From: Emiliania huxleyi CCMP1516
Lineage: Eukaryota
Assembly (NCBI RefSeq): GCF_000372725.1
Contig: NW_005201392.1
Location: forward strand, 413,660-477,659
DNA length: 64,000 nt
Direction: 5' to 3'
Shown: piece by piece, positions 47,648 to 58,226 of the stretch
Layout: every line of letters begins with the position of its first letter
Numbering within the stretch: the stretch's first letter is position 1
Notes under the pieces: generated by a model
Database searches by the model: none
What the model was told of the DNA's origin: nothing
What the model saw: the letters and a program-made list of their open reading frames with translations, nothing else
Program-made: the position numbers and the translations under genes

Positions 47648-48445
47648 CAGTGGGTTGCGGGCATTAAGAAAACAGGATTCCGCGGCACGCCGCCGTTTCT
47701 AAGCCTTTCCACAGCCCTGATCCACCCCACGCCGTGGGTTCTCAGCTCCCCGGCCGGCACTCAAGCCAGAGCCGGCCCGAAGGAGTTTTAGGTAAGAGGT
47801 AAGCTGCGGTCCGCGAGGGCGATGCCAGAGCCTGCCGCCGAGTCGGCTCTCTGGATGACGGGAAGACGCACACACACGCCTCCATCCACACACTCCACTC
47901 AGGAACACCGCAGACTTGGAAAGTGACAAGTGTGCGCGCGCCGCAGGCGAAGAGAAATTTTGAGCTGGGGCTCCCGTTCACACTCGTGGGTGGCCTTTTC
48001 TCGGGGCCGCGCCTGCGGCGCCGTAACCTGTGCTGCTGCTGCTGCTGCTGATGATGATGATGATGCTGCTCCTGCTACCCTCCCACCCGCCCGCCCTGTC
48101 CGCCCGCCCTTCGAGCCCGCCCTGCCCGCCCGCTCGCAAGGGGCCTTCACCTACACACTGGTCTGCTCCCCACATCTCCCCACACCTCCCCACACCTCCC
48201 TCTCCCCACACCTCCCCACATCTCCCCACCTCTCCCAACACCTCCCCACACCTCCCCTCTCACCTCCCCACATCTCCCCACATCTCCCTCTCCCCACATC
48301 TCCTGCATGCGTCAGGTCGTGGCGTGAAGCGTTGAGCCCGGCCTTTGAGCCGCTGTGGGATGCTCGACGACGGGTCACGCGACGGGCGAGAGATCGTCGG
48401 GCGCGGGACGTCCTATTCCCTCCGTCCGAATTTTAGGGGTTTGAG

Positions 48446-48738
48446 TGTGAAGGGGCGTGTCCTTTTCTGTGAAGGGGCGGGTAGTCTCCCTTCCAGGGCT
48501 CGCACCTCAGCCTCTCATAGACCAGGGCGGAAGTATTTTATGTATGTAAAAGAGGGATCGGCTCGATTGGACGGAGGCTGGACGCGTCCGCTGGGCACAT
48601 GCTGACTGAGCCGCCAGGCAAAGCTTGTGCTGTGAATAGCCCAGCGCTGACTTCTGACTGTCGTTGCTGTCTTTCCCCCTTCTCGACTGTCTGTGCTTGT
48701 GCGTCTTGGGTCCGGAGTTGTGCGTTTATGTGAATAGC
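48446..48738 (+). mobile_element. Cluster of TGTGAA-bounded retroelement 3' fragments
   Basis: TGTGAAGGGGCG is duplicated (48446 / 48468). A diverged copy of the 17-kb element's 3' UTR lies at 48477-48550. An insert with TSD TGTGAATAGC (48631-48640 / 48729-48738) follows. Confidence 0.7.
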
Positions 48739-48739
48739 A

Positions 48740-49313
48740 GGCGTGGTCTCTACTCGACAGCGTGTACGTGGGCGAGATCAAGGAGGGCGCCAGCGAGGGC
48801 TACGGCTGGAAGCGCTGGGTCGTGAACAGCGACGGGTCCTTCCACGCCAAGGGCAGCGTGTACGAGGGCAAGTGGAAGGAGGGCAAGAAGTGGGGCTACG
48901 GCACGGCGCGCTACGCCAGCGGCAACGTGTACGAGGGCGAGTGGAAGGCGAACGAGAAGGAGGGCAAGGGCAAGATGTGGTACGCCAACGGCAACGTGTA
49001 CGAGGGCGATTTCAAGGCGGACAGGAAGGAGGGCAAGGGCAAGATGTGGTACGCCAGCGGCAACGTGTACGTGGGCGATTTCAAGGCGGACGTCAGGGCG
49101 GGGAAGGGCAGGTTGCGCTACAAAAGCGGCAAGGTGCAAGTGGGCCGCTACGAGGGCGACAAACTGGTGGGCTCGGCGGCGAAGTGGAGCAAGGACCGCC
49201 GGAAGGCGTGGAGCGTGCAGGCTAAGCGGGGCGGCGGCTTTCAAGAGAAGCAGATCTCGCTCCAGACCGCGGCGGAGAAGGCCGCACGCCTCGGCCTGCC
49301 GGTGCCGCGGTAG
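48740..49313 (+). CDS. MORN-repeat protein (start codon not identified; partial or interrupted)
   Basis: Repeated YEGEWKxxxKEGKGKMWYANGNVY 23-aa units; stop at 49311-49313. Confidence 0.85.
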
Positions 49314-49593
49314 TGGGGATGCCGCCGCGTCGGCAGCGGCAGCGTGCGGTGTGGTGAAGGAGTAAGGGGTAGATACTATACAGGGAGGAACAAAGGGGGG
49401 AGTAAGAACGGTGCGGTGTGGTCTGTGGTGTTGAGACGCGATGCAATGTTGGGCATCATGGCTTGTTGCACCCATGGCCCGCTAAGGATTGTTCACTTTC
49501 GTGTGTCGCATTTGACGACCGATGGACAATTGCATGCGACGGACGTGGCAGACGATGGACCCTTGGTGGTCTGCTCTTCTCGACCGGCAATGA

Positions 49594-51160
49594 ATGGTTT
49601 GGCTTTCTCGACCAACTCGATCGACTATCGGTCGGACCAGTCGTCTGTCAAGTCATCCGGATGCGATTGTCCATGCGATTGACTTCGACTTCGTCTCTTT
49701 CCTCTTCTGCAGTTTCTTGTCTGTTCAGCCACGTTTCGGCTTTGCCAGTGCGCCACTGCTCCCAACACTGATGTCCTCATGGCGCGTTCTGGGCGCAAAC
49801 AGTCCGAGCGCCGCCACTCGGATTGATGAAGTCGAGGCAACCGAGGGCACCGATGGACAGACTGCTGACGTCGAGGCCACCCTTGAGGTCGAGGCAACCT
49901 TGGTGGTCTCCGACGATGGAGTCACTTTCGGCGTCGAGCCCATCGATGGAGTCGAGGACATGATTTGCCACGTTGCGAATCGAATCGTGTCACTAGAAGC
50001 GGTGGGTCTGGACGTCCAGACACAGACAGCGGACTGCTCTAGCAGTGACCCCGTCTACTCGTCTTGGGAACCCTACCCTGAGGCTTACAGCCCAGGACCA
50101 GCTTCCGACGACGAGGAGGCGCTGCCGACCCTGGAGCCTGTTGAGCTACCGCTCACACCCATCGGGTGAACCACCCAGCCTGGTACGGACTGGCCACCCT
50201 GCCTTTTGGGAGCCTGCCTTTGCCCGATGGCCTGCTCGCAGACCAGATTGCTACCTACCGAAGGCTGCCCATAGAGGAGCCCGAGATCGAGACGGTCATG
50301 GAAGACTCTTCCAGACTTACCTCTACCATTCGAGCCTTCTCCATCATTTGGCTGGTCTGGCTGACGGGCATTCGATGGCAAGTACTGCTGCTCCTCTTAC
50401 CAACTGCAACATGCTGGCTGCTGCATATCAACGAGGGGGCTGAGGTTTTGACCGCTGCTCCTGAGGGATCCCAGGTCACGTTTGGCTCTATCCTTTGGCC
50501 CCTCTCCTTCGTTTACCTTGCAAGATCTGCTGCCGTTTCTTGCTGGAGCAGCATTCTTCATGCTACCGAGCGTCGAGGGGGCACGAACGCGGCGCAGCGC
50601 CCGGTTTGGCTTAACGGCTGAAGAGCGCACCGCCATCAACATCCTCGACGCCGTCCCCGTCGTCGTGTGGATCGTGCTGTCCTTCGCCTACAGACTTCGC
50701 CGCCAAGCTGCTCTTGCCCTCCGAAAGCGAGCGCTGTCTTGCTTCCGAAGACACTTGGCACAATCGAAGCTGCTTGCCGATGCTCGAGCAATCATCGCAA
50801 CTCGAGCTTTGCTATCGCACCCTCCTCGTGCTCTTCCGCTTGAGGTTGCTTGTGACGCAGTGGTCTCCTCCCAAGCTCTGGATGCGAGAGAACCTCGCCC
50901 GGCCGCCCGTGCACGACATCGACGTGCCGTACCAGCGAGTCGACGACTTGCAGTCAATTGCGCTTTGCCTAGCCTCAGCACAGGCGCCGTCGTCCAAGCT
51001 GACCCGCCTCGTCAACCGGACGATGGTGGAGGGAGGAGCGCCTTACCGAAACTGCGTCGGTCTGCCTCACTACCCGCCCGACTCATTTGACAACGATCTC
51101 ACCTACCCAATCAAAGGGCACTACGAGCGTGTCAACGGGACGCTCTGGAAAAAGATGTAA
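49594..51160 (+). pseudogene. Degenerate chain of overlapping ORF fragments, possibly TE-derived
   Basis: Four successive plus-strand ORFs in shifting frames, lower GC, no satellite introns, no recognised domain. Confidence 0.3.
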
Positions 51161-51750
51161 TCTCTTTCCGCTGCATTAATTGCTGTACCTTTGGCATCCA
51201 GATTCCCAGCCGCTCGATTTCGTTGTACCCCTGTCCAACGATAGGGATTTCATTCTATCGACTTCGAGCCGTTCTTAAATTTTGGGTCTTTAGCAGTGCC
51301 ACAAGAGACAAGGGTTGGGCGTGCTCCTCACTCCCTTCGTTGCGTTCCTTTGGCAAGGGCGCTTCATGTACCATGCCGAGGTTTGCTCCGCCTCCGAGGA
51401 GCCCACAGAGCCCGTATAACAACTATAATGCGAACAATGCATCTCTCCATCGTTTGCACTATGACCTGTCGCTTCCCCGAGTATCGGACGGGCACCTCAG
51501 GCCAATGCACGAGGGGGTCTGTCAATGGAAACCACTTCACAGCTATGCCTTGCTTCTTTAGGTGCCCTTTGTATATCTGACTCTTCCGCATGAGCACCAG
51601 AGAGAAGGCAAAAGGCAACATAAGGCAGGATCTCTCTGGATGGGGGAACAACGAAGGGGGAACAACCCACACCACACAAGACGCCAAAGCCCAAAAGAAT
51701 AACAACATACACCGACAGGTTTTCACACCACATACTGGTTGCCCCTTCCT

Positions 51751-54280
51751 ATGTCTCACTGCTTTGTCTCCATCGAGGCCCGATCGACATCCTCACCGCC
51801 CGAGCTCTTCGAGCTGGCCTGGCGGCAGTGGGGCGCCTCTGCGCGAGCGTTCCAATCGAGCCCGTACGAGAACCGCGAGGAGATCCGCGCCGCGGCCAAG
51901 GTCTTCGAGAGCCTCAGCGCGGCTCCGGCACTGCTGAGCGACAAGGCGGTGTCGCGACTGGCGCTCGCTCGCTCCACCATCGAAGCGATGCTGCCGCTGT
52001 GCGAGGAGCCCGCCGCAGCCTCCGTCGCAGAGGAGCCACTCTGCAACGCCGTGCAGTCGCTCTTCCGCACCGCGAGCGGCGAGGGCATCGGCGTCGGGCC
52101 GCCCTCTGCGCAACGCACGGCGGAGCGGGCGCCGGGCGGAGGACGGCGCAGCAAGAACTCGCCCGGAGGCCGCTGCTTGTGCCTCAGCAGCGGCTTTGGC
52201 GAGTTCAAGAGCCAGCAGTGCACCTACCTGCCGCTCCGCACGCGCAACGGCACCAGCCACGCCTGCCGCATGGACCGGCTGAGGGAGGGCGAGTCGCTGC
52301 TGGGGACGCTGGAGCAGTTCTGCCGCGCGTACTACCACGCAAACCAGTGGGAGGCGCAGGTGTACCTCTGCCTCAAGTGCGGCCCGGACGCGACTGGCTC
52401 GCGGCTCGTCCTGCCCGAGGGCGTGGAGGTCGGCGGCATGAGCGGCGGCGCCGAGGGCAACGGCGCCGAAAGCGGCGGCGAGGGCGGCGGCGAGGGCGGC
52501 GGCGAGGGCGGCAGCGGCGAGGGCGGCGGCGGTGAGGGCGGCATCGCGACGGCCCCCGACGGCGACATCTGCGGCAAGGTGCAGGTGGTGGCGGTGGTGC
52601 GGCTGCTCGGCCACGACGGCAGCGAGTGGATCTGCCGATATGCAAACTGCTTCCGCGGCTCGCCTCGCTAGATGCCGATCCCTCGACACCCGACCTCATA
52701 GCCGACCTCACAGCCCCGTGCTCAGCTGTCTGGAGGCGCTTGAGTCTCACTGGGTTCGCCGCGCAGGGTCGTCCGAGGCCAACGTGCACGCCGAGAGCTT
52801 CGTCATCGCAGACGAGACCATCCTGTCGGCGGTGCGCGCGGGCGAGGTTGCCGAGCTGACGCTCTACCTCTCGTATCAGCCCTGCCACCACTCCGGCGGC
52901 CGCTTCGGTGGAGGCGAGGCGCGCCAGCGGCGGCGCGCGCACCGGCAGCACCCCACCTCGTGCACCGAGGCGCCGATCGCCACGACGAGGGAGGTTCCCT
53001 CCTCGCCTCCCCCGAGCCGCCTCGGAGACTTCTCTAGGCGCTGATCGCCTACCACGAGCGCGAGCTCGCGCCGTACAACGTGCCGCTCTCGGTTGTGGTC
53101 GCCGACTTGTACAAGGTCATGTGGACCGAGGAGCTGATGGGCGCGCGCCGCCGGCCCGTAGCTTCCTGCCCAGCCAGAGGGCGCGCCTCCCTCACCGCGC
53201 GTGGGTCGAGGCGCCGTAGGCGAGGGGCAGGTGCGAGACGTGTACGCGGCCGACGCGAGCGCGGGCCGGGAGGGGATCCGGCGGCTGATGTCGCAGCCGG
53301 GGATGTCGATGCGTGCCACGGGCGAGGAGGACTGGGCCTTCCTGATCGGCCTGTGCGACCAGTCGGTGCAGGAGGAGTACGAGCGACGCGGCGAGGCTGG
53401 CTCGGCCTTCGGCCCCACCCACGTCGCCCTGCGGTGCGGGGCACCGCCTCCTCCGCCCGCGCCGCCCGCGCCCTCCCCACCCCCTCGCTCGTCTCGCAGG
53501 GCGAAGCTCGACGCGGTCATTGCTGACTTCCTTGCGGCGCAGCATGCTGAGATGGCCGCGGCGGCGGAGGCGGCGGAGGCGGCGGAGGAGGCCGAGGAGG
53601 CCGAGGCGGTGGAGGCGGCCGAGGCGGCGGAAACGGCGCCCGCGCCGGCGGGGCCCGCCACCGAGGGTTCGGCGGAGGCGGCGGCCGCCCAGCGCCTCCC
53701 GGACAACAAGAAGAAGGTGTACGGTCGCGACTTTCTCCTCTCCTGCGCGCCGCAGCCCGCCGCGGCGCCCTCGGAGGAGGAGTGCGCCCCTCCGGCGGCC
53801 GTCGACGAGACCACCAACTTGCCGCTTTCGCCCGAGGTGTCCCGTGACGAGACGACGAACTTGGAGGCCGACGCTGCCGCGCTGAACGGGGCGAGCGGTC
53901 CGGACGGGACCGTGTCCCCCGAGCCCGCGCCGCGTGACAGCGCCGAACAACTCGCCGACGCGCGGCTCGACTCGCTGCCTCCGCCGCTGCCTCCGCCGCT
54001 GCCTCCGCCGCTGCCGCCGCCGCTGCCTCCGCCGCTCCCGCCGCCGCCGCCGCCGTCGTCGCTGAAAGAGGAGCCGGCGGACCTCGACGATGCGGGAGCG
54101 CCAGCTGAAGCGGAGCCTCACGCTGGAGAGGAGCCTACGGCACGTCTGAGCCTGGCGGAGCTCGAGGCTATCCAGGGCGAGGCCTTGGCGGACGATATCA
54201 CAATCGAGAGCAAGATGTGCGCTTGGACGGCGGAGCAGGCGATGCGCTACTTCGAGTCGGGAGGCACCGAGGAGCCTTAG
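51751..54280 (+). CDS. AID/APOBEC-like zinc-dependent deaminase with a C-terminal low-complexity tail (5 inferred exons)
   Basis: FCRAYYH; YANCFRG|SSEANVHAESFV (HAE 52787-52795); LTLYLSYQPC (C 52883) .. SC (C 52961); VVVADLYKVMW; REGIRRLM...MRATGEEDW. Inferred introns ~52658-52766, 52970-53037, ~53141-53219, ~53434-53499. Confidence 0.82.
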
Positions 54281-55500
54281 TGAGGTGCCGCCGGCGAGCG
54301 GGGGAAGGCGGAGGACTCCGCATCCTCAGAGACCACACCACACCACCGTGCCTTCAACCACATGGTCGCACGCCCCCGCGCCCCGAACGAGGGGGGTGCT
54401 GGCCTGCTCTCAGCCACCATGCCGCACGCGCGTCGAGCAGCAGCTCTGGAAAACAACGATTTCAACGTCAGACCAGGTTTTTTGTTGGGTGTGGGTGGGT
54501 GGGGGGGGGGGGGGGGGCACTTCAGTTGAGTACTTGAGCACTGGATAGGGTCGAAGTCACCGGTCAGGGGCTTCAGGGCGCGGGGCGCTCCCGCAGGCCC
54601 TGGCGCCTGGGTCTCTCTCTGATGACTGACACCAGTCACCACGTGACACGTGTGCGCTGTGCGCGGTGTGGCCAACAAAGGTCAAAGCTCAAAACTTTAG
54701 GGAGCAAAACGGCGGACTGGCCATCCACATTGGGGCTTTTGGCATGTTGCGTGACTGTCTCTGTGCGATTTCGGGCCCGGGGTTGTGCGTTTATCTGAAG
54801 TATCTGAAGAGGAGCGACCACAAGGGATCCTGGTCATCACACGCATGCCCCTCCGTTGCGGGATCGCCATCAGTGAATACATGTAATTTTTACTTCTACC
54901 CCAGTACCCGTGACGAAAAACGAACAAGCACCAAGCGCTAAGCGTGAGGACACGATTGCGAATTCGGAGGTGCACCTAAGCAAAATTGAGCCCACTCAGG
55001 TGTGAATATAAGGGTCGAACAGGTTTCGAGCCGGGGACCTCTCGCCTGGCGAGAAGGCTCCCAGCAAGAAAAGCTGAGATTGTGAAGGAGGGCCCCAGGA
55101 GTTCGAAACCTATATAGCATACCGAGGGAATTAGACACCACAGATACGCACACACCGACGCCCGAAGTGCCAAGAAGGACGTCATTAGTACGAAACCTCA
55201 GAAGGCCATGGGCGCCGAGAGAACAAAAAAGAAAAAAGAAGAAAGTCGACGCACCCCCTCCTTGCGCAGTGTCCCTCGCTAAGTGTCGCCGTTATCGGGG
55301 CACGCTATCCTGTGCAGTCAGGGCATGAGGGCAAGCGGGGGCGGGACGCAGTCCCATCTCTCCTGTGTACGGGTGGGTTCTGTCTCCAGTCTCGGAGGGG
55401 GGCAAGAAGGTAAGAATATCTATTTTTTTGGTAATTTTTACTTCTGTCAAGGAACTCATGAGCGCATTGCACTAATGTTTTGCCACGCGTCGATCCAGGT

Positions 55501-55595
55501 CCCCACCCGTCCCCACCCGTCCCCACCCATCCCCACCCATCCCCACCCATCCCCACCCATCCCCACCCATCCCCACCCATCCCCACCCATCCCCA
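55501..55595. repeat. (CCCCACCCAT)n satellite
   Basis: About 9 copies of the 10-mer. Confidence 0.95.
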
Positions 55596-55707
55596 GCTCG
55601 CTCTATCACACACCCCAAGAGAGCCCTTGGGGAAATCCGTTCGCCATACGCTCCGAGCATGCGTGTGATGAGGAAGATGATAGAGAGGGCGAGCTTTGCA
55701 TAAAAGA

Positions 55708-56801
55708 AGGGCGCGTGGGTCTAAATTTAGTGCGGTGTGAAGTGTTTATCTACTGCATCTTTAGCGCACTTTAGCGCAAATTCAGCGCAAATTTAGCGCA
55801 ACTTTAGCGCAAATTTAGCGCAAATTTAGCGCAAATTTAGCGCGAGTTCACTGCGACTTTACATCCAGATTTAGCGAGGTTTAGTGCGTCTTTAGTCCAG
55901 CCGCGCAGTAGGATCCAGCCGCAGACCCTCGCTGGGCCTCCCTTCCCCTCTCCCCCTGCAGTTCCCTGCCCACTCGCAAAAGTTCCCCGTCCCATCCCCA
56001 ACCAACCGAACGAAGGTTCTTCAGCTGAATATCAGCCTCCAAGGTGCTTTCCGGGCTGCTTCTCCGGGCCCGAGCGGCAAAACGTTGCCGGAAGCGGGGC
56101 GTGAACATAACGACTTTACTGCGTGACTTACAATCTACATGGATCATTGCCATTTGGCCGTTTCTTTCTGTCATCGTGGTCTGGATCCTTCATCCTTTGG
56201 TTCAACATTGGTTTTGAAATTCCAAGACCGACCCTCACCTCTACTCTATTACAGCTGGTGGTCACGGGCACAGCATGGGTTGTGCGGTCGGAGGTGGTGC
56301 TTGCGGTGGCCCATTCAACTGTGCTGGTCCTCCTCTCGGGAATCGGTGCTGTGCCTGTGCTCAGTCGGGAGATCTTGCTCTGGAGGGCTGCATATCTAGC
56401 CTCACTGGGAGCCTGCCTTTGGGTCATGAGGGCAGGGGCCAGGCATCTCTCGTTGTGGTGCATTCTTGGCAGCCAAGGAGCAAAGCACGCGGCCCTGGCT
56501 AGCTGTGGTGTGGCTGGGAAGCCGTGCTAAAGATGCGTGCCCGCACTAAAGATGCGGGACCCACACTAAATGTACTGCAGCTGCCCGCACCTAAAGTGAA
56601 CTAAATGTGGCGCTAAATTGGAGATAAAACACACTAAATATGTGCTAAATATGTGCTAAATATGTGCTAAATATGTGCTAAATATGTGCTAAATATGTGC
56701 TAAATTTGCGCTAAATTTGCGCTAAATTTGCGTTCATAAATAGCGCACTAAACTATCACTTAAGTTCATTCACACGCACTAAATTTAGACCCAAGCGCCC
56801 T
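55708..56801. mobile_element. Non-autonomous TIR element with subterminal 11-bp repeats
   Basis: TIR AGGGCGC(G/T)TGGGTCTAAATTTAGTGCG; (TTTAGCGCAAA)n on the left, (TGTGCTAAATA)n/(TTTGCGCTAAA)n on the right; no TSD seen. Confidence 0.8.
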
Positions 56802-56905
56802 CCCTCACGCCATGGCCTCGGCCTCGAGTCGCAGCTTGCCCAGAGCTTGCCGCCGCCGTGGTGGGCAGGATGCCGGCCGGCCGCTCCCGCTGTCGGGCGC
56901 ATCCG

Positions 56906-58226
56906 CGGTTACTGGACCGTCACGTGTTCAACGACGTTGAACAGTGTTCAACCACGGCGCTGTTCACAGCGCGCGCGGACGGCCGTTCTGCGAGTCCAGC
57001 TCCGCTGGACTTTTGTAAAGCATGCTTGTGGCAAGTTATAGACGCTAGTATCGACCTCAGAGACCCAAACCCGAATTAATAATTAAGGCTCAAAGTATGG
57101 TTGAACAACCGTTGAACAAACAGGTTGAACAACGATATCCGACTAGTGCGACCGCTAGACGGCGGTCTCCGCCGGCCCCAAGGCTGCCCAGCCCCAGTAC
57201 CACACCGGCCACGTAGACCGTGGCGCTGGAGTCGGTCAGTGAGGCACTAGACGGGCTACGGAACCATGCGCGCGCCGGCCGGATAGGCTGCGCGCAGGGG
57301 CCGCGCCGCCTCGATTTCGCATCTCCGCTCCGCGGCCGACTGAGGGGCCAGCTCGCCCGGCGACAAGCCCAGCCATCGCCCAGCGCCCCGTATCGACGGA
57401 GGGCACGCAAAAAACCCGCACCTACGACTAGGGTGAGCCCGTGAGGGCGTCGGTGTCGGCCGCGGGCGGGCTGCCAGGAGGGCGCGGGTGGGAGCATGGG
57501 AGATGCTCCACCGCTCGACGAAGACGCGCCCGACGAAGCCCTGCTAGCGGAAGATGGTCGATCCTCACCTACTAGCGTCGGGCGTGTGCGAAAAAGAGCG
57601 CAAATCGGAGCTCAACTCGCGCGCGGCTGGGAAAGGGGTGTGGCACCCCTCCGAAGGCGCCTCGCGAGGAGCTGCTGCTGCCTCCAAACGCGCTCGGGCA
57701 GCACGTCGGCGCGCCTGCGGGGTTGGGGAGGTGAAACTATGCTTGCTGGCACGCGCATCCCGCACCACCCCCACGTCCGCGCGCACCATGCCGCCATCCC
57801 ACCTCACAGCCAAGCGCCATCGCTGTCGGACGCGGCGACGCCGAGCGGTGGCCTCGCAGACGACGAGCGCGATGAGGCCGCCGCGCCGCCGGGGTGGCCG
57901 GCGCGTGCCAGCCGCTGGCCCGTCCAGCGTGGCGGGACCGGCTCGCCCATCCTGGCCCGCGCGCTTGCCGACGCGAGAAGATCGCGCGGGAGGGCAAATC
58001 TTGGGCAAAATGCCCTGTTTGCCAATCCTTCACGGCGGCTTCACGTCGGAACGAGTCGGATCGACGACTCCCCGCCTGCACCAGCGTGTGCGCCTTGCAA
58101 TTCTATACAGAATCGACACGTGGTACGTCTTCTCAATCGCTCGTGGAGAGGAGCTACGGCCATTCCTAAGTAGTGTTCAACGACCTTGAACAATGTTCAA
58201 CGTCGTTGAACACGGTCCAGTAACCG
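56906..58226. mobile_element. TIR element, 1.3 kb, with a 4-bp TSD TCCG
   Basis: TIR CGGTTACTGGACCGT..GTTCAACGACGTTGAACA; TCCG at 56902-56905 and 58227-58230. Confidence 0.75.

What the first reader, a model, noticed from the sequence alone, without database searches (positions are those of the whole stretch)
51751..54280. AID/APOBEC-like deaminase carrying an eIF4E-binding-type motif
Seen: the spliced ORF has the APOBEC-fold order FxxxYH ... HAE ... LxLYLSYQPC-x25-C ... ADLYK.W ... EGIRRL ... DW, with catalytic Glu and Zn ligands intact. In the disordered tail, at 53708-53740, is KKKVYGRDFLL. Established: YxxxxL-phi preceded by basic residues is the eIF4E-binding consensus of eIF4G and 4E-BPs, and divergent AID/APOBEC-like genes are known from some algae and invertebrates. 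Inference: this may be a cytidine deaminase tethered to cap-bound mRNA, editing or restricting host, viral or retroelement transcripts. I know of no described deaminase with this fusion.
Basis: partly seen in the sequence, partly recalled or inferred. Interest (0 to 1): 0.85.

Follow-up and report, generated by a model that had tools for sequence, protein, structure and literature searches.

The report
Algal deaminase with cap-factor docking motif

Summary
Five exons, joined in 4 of 4 runs, give a 735-aa protein with HAE, PC-x25-C and KKKVYGRDFLL in frame. The enzyme is not new: it is XP_005768613.1 of Emiliania huxleyi in the published cnidaria-algae-APOBEC4 alignment, though that model is mis-spliced at three introns. 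A close relative folds like AID/APOBEC3 (Z 16.7). The motif matches human eIF4G YDREFLL at 5 of 7 letters; its extended pattern arises in 0.1% of tail shuffles. It fails the conservation test: 0 of 139 relatives have it, and most near relatives end soon after the domain. Yet 17 of 139 relatives carry a DDX3/eIF3g-type YxPPHxR motif, and others PAM2-like motifs or CCCH fingers, so docking on mRNA-protein complexes recurs in the family. Best reading: an mRNA-complex-targeted deaminase with a lineage-specific eIF4E tether (45%). Binding, activity and substrate are untested; no complex prediction was available. New variant of a known kind; interest 0.5.

The parts
51751..52657 (+). Exon 1: start codon, N-terminal helical domain, Zn-site inserts, helix 1 to strand 2 of the deaminase
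   Evidence: numbering agrees with XP_005768613.1 (Lys135)
51793..52005 (+). N-terminal helical bundle (about residues 15-85), shared with P0031, P0024, P0002; role not determined
   Evidence: alignment; helices in the P0031 model; only generic helical matches, Z under 8
52318..52380 (+). FCRAYYH ... LCLKC: Cys and His at the end of helix 1 and loop-1 Cys of the clade's predicted second Zn site
   Evidence: clade definition in Table S1 of PMC5889660
52642..52656 (+). ANCFR, the loop-3 NC motif that the public gene model lacks
52658..52766 (+). Intron 1, GC-AG, 109 bases
   Evidence: joint in 4 of 4 runs
52767..52969 (+). Exon 2: HAE (52787-52795), SYQPC (52871-52885), 25-residue spacer, second Zn cysteine
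52970..53037 (+). Intron 2, GC-AG, 68 bases
53038..53140 (+). Exon 3: strand 4 and loop 7 (ADLYK 53101-53115)
53141..53219 (+). Intron 3, GC-AG, 79 bases
53220..53433 (+). Exon 4: helix 4, strand 5, DW helix
53434..53499 (+). Intron 4, GT-AG, 66 bases
53500..54280 (+). Exon 5: end of helix 6 (RAKLD) and a 255-residue Ala/Glu/Pro-rich tail to the stop codon
53708..53740 (+). KKKVYGRDFLL, candidate canonical eIF4E-binding motif (Tyr550-Leu556 at 53720-53740); the only hydrophobic island of the tail by an 11-residue count
   Evidence: intact in L001
53975..54058 (+). LPPP repeat, about 28 residues
   Evidence: sequence
54140..54277 (+). C-terminal 45-residue three-helix module ending YFESGG, found at the N-terminus of other proteins that are not deaminases
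   Evidence: model pLDDT 81; no clear fold match

Best explanation
The gene encodes a spliced AID/APOBEC-type deaminase with an intact zinc site, whose lineage-specific tail likely binds eIF4E and so likely holds the enzyme near capped mRNA, where it would convert C to U in single-stranded RNA, most plausibly of viruses or retroelements. Shown: gene structure, splicing, active-site residues, family membership, the motif in frame, and the fold of a close relative. Inferred: that the motif docks on the dorsal face of eIF4E as eIF4G and 4E-BPs do; that this replaces the YxPPHxR motif used by the sister subfamily; that the enzyme is active; that the substrate is RNA in mRNA-protein complexes; that the role is defence. 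A lone canonical motif would more likely ride on free or repressed eIF4E than displace eIF4G.
For: Splicing and frame. His310, Glu312, Cys342, Cys368 and the substrate-side Asn299, Tyr339, Tyr395, Trp443 are present (the assignment to AID positions is recalled). The relative P0031 (40% over residues 15-500) folds with pLDDT 86 and matches APOBEC3F (Foldseek E 1.6e-6) and AID (Z 16.7, rmsd 2.5, 173 aligned; best unrelated row 7.7). YGRDFLL equals human eIF4G YDREFLL at 5 of 7 letters and has the Arg that pairs with eIF4E Glu132 (PMC8558276). Shuffle rates are low for the extended pattern. Family context: YxPPHxR-type motif in 17 of 139 non-redundant relatives (null mean 0.09, 0 of 200 shuffles), the strict DDX3 form in 9 of 139, PAM2-like in 3 of 139, C2H2 in 2; Pfam CCCH fingers in 4 of 103, a zinc knuckle in 1, an RRM in 1. 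In human proteins YxPPx-phi-R is almost confined to translation proteins (PMC3510515). Among proteins with intact N-termini it is in 13 of 21 rows of the sister group and 0 of 7 of this gene's own group. APOBEC3G is a precedent for a deaminase in eIF4E-containing particles (PMC1458959).
Against: 0 of 139 relatives have the extended motif, and the bare pattern is rarer in the family than in shuffles (8 of 139 against a mean of 21.7). Of 33 near relatives checked, 14 are cut short; 16 of the other 19 end within 54 residues of helix 6, and the 3 longer tails lack the motif. Tail searches found only the C-terminal module and two chimeric copies of this gene. Position 10 of the extended consensus is Ala, not R/K/Q, and no non-canonical motif is evident, which 4E-BPs need to compete with eIF4G (PMC4164784). 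The YxPP motif is clustered on the tree (6 changes against 10.4 shuffled), so it counts as about one inherited feature; its partner is disputed (no direct eIF4E binding by NMR, PMC11251518); and I had no algal proteome to measure its background. No biochemical role had been shown for APOBEC4 as of PMC5889660.
Confidence: 0.45

Rival explanations
1. The enzyme is an ordinary member of its clade, a mutator of single-stranded viral or retroelement nucleic acid, and the motif is a passenger: chance, or a fragment carried in when a patchwork tail was added, with no role.
For: No relative has the motif or the tail. The tail is a patchwork: its last 45 residues are a mobile module found at the start of unrelated proteins. 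The bare pattern occurs in 24% of whole-protein shuffles, and one more extended match occurs in the six frames of the window.
Against: The match goes well beyond the bare pattern (0 of 20000 tail shuffles and 0 of 8000 whole-protein shuffles for the closest form), lies in a low-complexity tail as its only hydrophobic island, and the family repeatedly carries mRNA-complex modules.
Confidence: 0.35
2. The protein is mainly a translation repressor of the 4E-BP or Cup type: the deaminase fold binds particular RNAs without editing them, and the tail blocks eIF4E on those RNAs.
For: Canonical motif in a disordered tail, as in 4E-BPs; no biochemical activity shown for APOBEC4 or APOBEC2 as of PMC5889660; extra Zn inserts could serve binding.
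Against: The catalytic Glu and Zn ligands are nearly invariant across 76 aligned relatives, as expected of an active enzyme; no non-canonical motif is evident, which repression requires.
Confidence: 0.15
3. The tail is not part of the deaminase protein (different splice or a separate transcript).
For: No single contig spans the repeat between core and motif; near relatives stop shortly after helix 6.
Against: The exon 4-5 joint is seen in 4 of 4 runs with 88-89 letters beyond it, the frame has no stop until 54278, no well-supported joint lies in exon 5 among those shown, and contig depth is alike on both sides.
Confidence: 0.05

Closest known systems
[quoted passage not shown]
   Same: This gene is the row XP_005768613.1 in Fig. 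S14; all listed clade features are present once the splicing is corrected.
   Different: The published row ends at its residue 498 and is mis-spliced at introns 1-3, losing the NC motif; the tail, the eIF4E-type motif and the relatives' YxPP, PAM2 and CCCH modules were not found in the passages and supplement text searched.
Human APOBEC3G/3F in P-bodies (PMC1458959)
   Same: APOBEC fold; associates with eIF4E-containing particles; antiviral.
   Different: That association is bridged by RNA and lost with RNase; here a direct peptide contact is proposed.
eIF4G and 4E-binding proteins (4E-BP, 4E-T, Cup, Mextli)
   Same: Canonical YxxxxL-phi motif with Arg at position 3, in a low-complexity region.
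   Different: No R/K/Q at position 10, no evident non-canonical motif, no MIF4G or other eIF4G domain (Pfam); joined to an enzyme.
DDX3X/Ded1, eIF3g and eIF2A YxPPx-phi-R motif (PMC3510515)
   Same: Found at the N-terminus of 9 (strict) to 17 (broad) of 139 relatives.
   Different: Absent from this protein and from its own subfamily; its direct partner is unsettled.

Membership tests
AID/APOBEC deaminases | HxE and PCxnC zinc site with catalytic Glu | tested here: met
   HAE 310-312, PC-x25-C 341-368
AID/APOBEC deaminases | APOBEC fold with extra helices after strand 5 | tested here: met
   Tested on the relative P0031, not on the spliced protein: AID Z 16.7, APOBEC3H Z 16.6; P0003 passes the Pfam APOBEC_N cut-off, 31.7 against 25 bits; exon 2 alone gives NAD1 E 0.0025, under the cut-off
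AID/APOBEC deaminases | C-to-U activity on single-stranded nucleic acid | not testable with these tools
   needs an assay
Cnidaria-algae-APOBEC4 clade | Cys and His at the end of helix 1, Cys in loop 1, NC motif at the start of loop 3 | tested here: met
   Cys191, His196, Cys207/Cys210, Asn299-Cys300; definition
Cnidaria-algae-APOBEC4 clade | RxxxD in helix 6; CxnC spacing of 2 to 25 | tested here: met
   RAKLD 476-480; n = 25
Cnidaria-algae-APOBEC4 clade | Additional N-terminal CxxC---H site | tested here: inconclusive
   Cys142, Cys144, Cys157, His171, Cys173 are present but spaced CxC; metal binding not tested
eIF4E-binding proteins | Canonical YxxxxL-phi motif in a disordered region | tested here: met
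   Tyr550-Leu556 in an Ala/Glu/Pro-rich tail; disorder judged from composition only
eIF4E-binding proteins | Extended consensus YX(R/K)X2L-phi-X2(R/K/Q) | tested here: not met
eIF4E-binding proteins | Motif conserved among orthologues | tested here: not met
   0 of 139 relatives; kept only in a 99.7% identical copy; sister genera not sampled
eIF4E-binding proteins | Non-canonical motif for the lateral face of eIF4E | tested here: inconclusive
   none evident by eye downstream; such motifs have no consensus
eIF4E-binding proteins | Direct binding to eIF4E | not testable with these tools

The most novel reading that the evidence does not exclude
Algal APOBEC4-like deaminases are RNA-editing or RNA-restricting enzymes wired directly to the translation-initiation machinery: one subfamily by a DDX3-type YxPPHxR motif and PAM2 motifs, another by CCCH fingers, and the E. 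huxleyi enzyme by a true eIF4E-binding motif. It would be the first deaminase tethered to the cap complex by a direct peptide contact, scanning capped host or giant-virus mRNA.
Probability: 0.3. Interest if true: 0.8.

Novelty: new variant of a known kind. Interest (0 to 1): 0.5.

Why it matters
The substrate of the APOBEC4-like clade is an open question. Docking motifs for eIF4E, initiation helicases and poly(A)-binding protein point to cytoplasmic mRNA and give cheap tests (peptide pull-downs, point mutants, RNA against DNA assays) in an alga whose blooms are ended by a giant DNA virus (recalled). The corrected exon structure also matters in practice: the public model lacks the loop-3 NC motif and strand 2 and has two intron-derived inserts, so it would probably give a dead protein in any assay or base-editor screen.

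Tried and rejected
No whole genome is held for this window, so paralogues and the proteome-wide background of the motifs could not be counted. The motif peptide matched no PDB chain, no Pfam family and no usable Atlas cluster; such short queries are weak. A sequence profile of the family found no PDB hit; the fold search did. No viral relative was found. No run is on record as RNA. A second read-laying on other organisms was not obtained, which leaves conservation in those organisms open. The careful 112-row tree did not finish (quick tree used, 28 of 140 rows dropped for lacking the HxE-PC anchor); a careful 32-row tree did. The C-terminal module and the N-terminal bundle have no clear fold match. 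An HLM-like motif (1 of 139) and the CCHC pattern (1 of 139) were not above shuffles. P0189 and P0190 carry this gene's C-terminus joined to unrelated sequence and were rejected as chimeras. The RRM on P0008 may be a gene-model fusion. No tRNA in the window and no Rfam match in 48000-58000. Earlier findings: none returned. The supplement of PMC3239186 could not be read, so whether its E. huxleyi sequence is this gene is unknown; the supplement of PMC5889660 was cut when stored and its alignments are letter-spaced, so motif searches there are blind.

Full report
Gene structure. The region is a five-exon gene on the + strand: 51751-52657, 52767-52969, 53038-53140, 53220-53433, 53500-54280. Contigs from 4 of 4 runs laid, from four studies, skip exactly these four introns; three are GC-AG and one GT-AG. 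The tool only guesses that the runs are RNA, but the metagenome contig L001 matches the window at 99.7% over 2656 bases with all introns in place, so the joined form is a transcript. The tail is covered in all four runs at depth similar to the catalytic exons; no single contig crosses the two repeats inside it, so its link to the core rests on adjoining contigs and the lack of an earlier stop.

The enzyme. Exon 2 alone hits APOBEC-type Pfam families below their cut-offs. A search with it found 29 relatives, and a profile search 412 at E up to 0.001, of which 150 were listed. P0003 passes the APOBEC_N cut-off. The closest full relative, P0031, folds with mean pLDDT 86; its best matches are APOBEC3 structures by Foldseek and AID, APOBEC3H, APOBEC3G and APOBEC1 at Z 15-17 against 7.7 for the best unrelated chain. 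The spliced protein itself was not folded. It is not a new enzyme: the supplement of PMC5889660 (parts 1 and 45 and searches read) aligns this very sequence as XP_005768613.1 of Emiliania huxleyi in the cnidaria-algae-APOBEC4 clade, with the same numbering, and lists five copies in the species. That public model keeps intron sequence at introns 1, 2 and 3 and lacks the RYANCFR stretch, which holds the clade's NC motif; the splicing seen here restores it. The clade features of Table S1 are then met. PMC3239186 (passages) had already reported an Emiliania member. No viral copy was found.

The motif. YGRDFLL matches the human eIF4G site YDREFLL (one passage of PMC13081929) at five of seven letters, has the Arg at position 3 of the extended consensus but Ala at position 10 (passages of PMC8558276), and follows three lysines. 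The bare pattern means little: 24% of whole-protein shuffles have it. The extended forms are rare: 97 of 100000 tail shuffles with the Arg, 2 of 20000 with an upstream basic residue too, 0 of 20000 for the closest form. I put the chance that the peptide binds eIF4E at a little over one half; this is a judgement.

Conservation goes against it. None of 139 non-redundant relatives (from 167) has the extended motif; 8 have the bare pattern, fewer than shuffles give. Of 33 near relatives, 19 reach helix 6; 16 of them end within 54 residues and 3 have longer tails without the motif. Two searches with the tail, each scoring about 8000 candidates, found only its last 45 residues in other proteins and two chimeric copies. 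The motif is intact in L001 and shows no listed difference in the four runs, with one Asp-to-Gly change two residues before it. The nearest relatives are only about 55% identical in the core, so sister genera were not sampled. The tail is a recent, patchwork addition.

The family points the same way by other means. Seventeen of 139 relatives begin with a YxPPHxR-type motif (null mean 0.09; 9 in the strict form), 3 have PAM2-like motifs (pattern recalled; null mean 0.55), 2 have C2H2 fingers; Pfam finds CCCH fingers in 4 of 103 scanned, a zinc knuckle, an RRM, a 2OG-Fe oxygenase and a metallophosphoesterase in one each. In human proteins YxPPx-phi-R is nearly confined to translation proteins such as DDX3X, eIF3g and eIF2A (passages of PMC3510515). 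Its partner is unsettled: it links DDX3X to initiation factors but did not bind eIF4E by NMR (passages of PMC11251518), and Ded1 residues 21-27 are needed for eIF4A binding (abstract and passages of PMC7343385; that these residues are the same motif is recalled). On a careful tree of 32 proteins with intact N-termini the motif is in 13 of 21 rows of the sister group, 0 of 7 of this gene's group (support 99/97) and 0 of 4 others; it is clustered, so it counts as about one inherited trait, and the root is only a midpoint. In the quick 112-row tree this gene's 21-row group includes two CCCH-bearing rows. The pattern fits a family that works on mRNA-protein complexes and swaps its docking modules. 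I could not measure how common YxPP starts are in algal proteins generally.

Mechanism. Most likely (45%) the tail binds the dorsal face of eIF4E and keeps an active deaminase near capped RNA, where it edits or damages single-stranded RNA, plausibly viral or retroelement, in line with the defence role proposed for the clade (PMC5889660). Since canonical motifs alone do not displace eIF4G (passages of PMC4164784), it would ride on free or repressed eIF4E rather than shut down translation. Rivals: the motif is a passenger (35%); the protein is a repressor that does not edit (15%); the tail is not in the protein (5%). APOBEC3G is the nearest precedent, but its link to eIF4E is through RNA (passages of PMC1458959).

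Novelty. The enzyme is known; the motif and the family's docking modules were not found in print by the searches run: 'eIF4E-binding motif' + deaminase + APOBEC gave 0 papers, APOBEC-like + algae + eIF4E 0, APOBEC-like + Emiliania + deaminase 1, APOBEC4 + deaminase activity + algae 2; eIF4E does not occur in the main text or readable supplement of PMC5889660. The library lacks most subscription papers, and unread supplements may bear on this. Verdict: new variant of a known kind, interest 0.5; 0.8 if direct tethering is shown.

Noticed in passing
window 54140-54277; P0030, P0191-P0194: A 45-residue three-helix module ending W-x7-YFESGG is C-terminal here and N-terminal in other proteins; no Pfam, Atlas or PDB match. 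It looks like an undescribed mobile domain.
   Followed up: partly
window 52658-53219: The public model XP_005768613.1 is mis-spliced at three GC-AG introns; it lacks strand 2 and the NC motif and carries two intron-derived inserts.
   Followed up: yes
P0048, P0063, P0051: One subgroup of the family combines an N-terminal YxPPHLR motif, a C2H2 finger and C-terminal PAM2-like motifs, a set that would contact both ends of an mRNA complex.
   Followed up: partly
P0106, P0166, P0160: Family members fused to a 2OG-Fe(II) oxygenase (AlkB-like), to a metallophosphoesterase, or carrying two deaminase domains.
   Followed up: no
window 51793-52005; P0031, P0024, P0002: A conserved N-terminal helical bundle confined to this gene's subfamily, with only generic structural matches.
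   Followed up: partly
P0004 residues 46-57: A short leucine-rich helix motif like those of decapping-complex proteins (recalled); single case, not above shuffles.
   Followed up: no
window 54995-55165: A stretch with two tRNA T-arm-like elements by eye, partly matched upstream in L001 at another window position (55725-55841); ARAGORN and Rfam found nothing. Possibly a short repeat.
   Followed up: no
L117:28-621: Of 120 viral eIF4E-like genes fetched, only this one kept the S/T-V-E-E/D-F-W dorsal motif by my pattern; it is closest to a fungal eIF4E structure.
   Followed up: no
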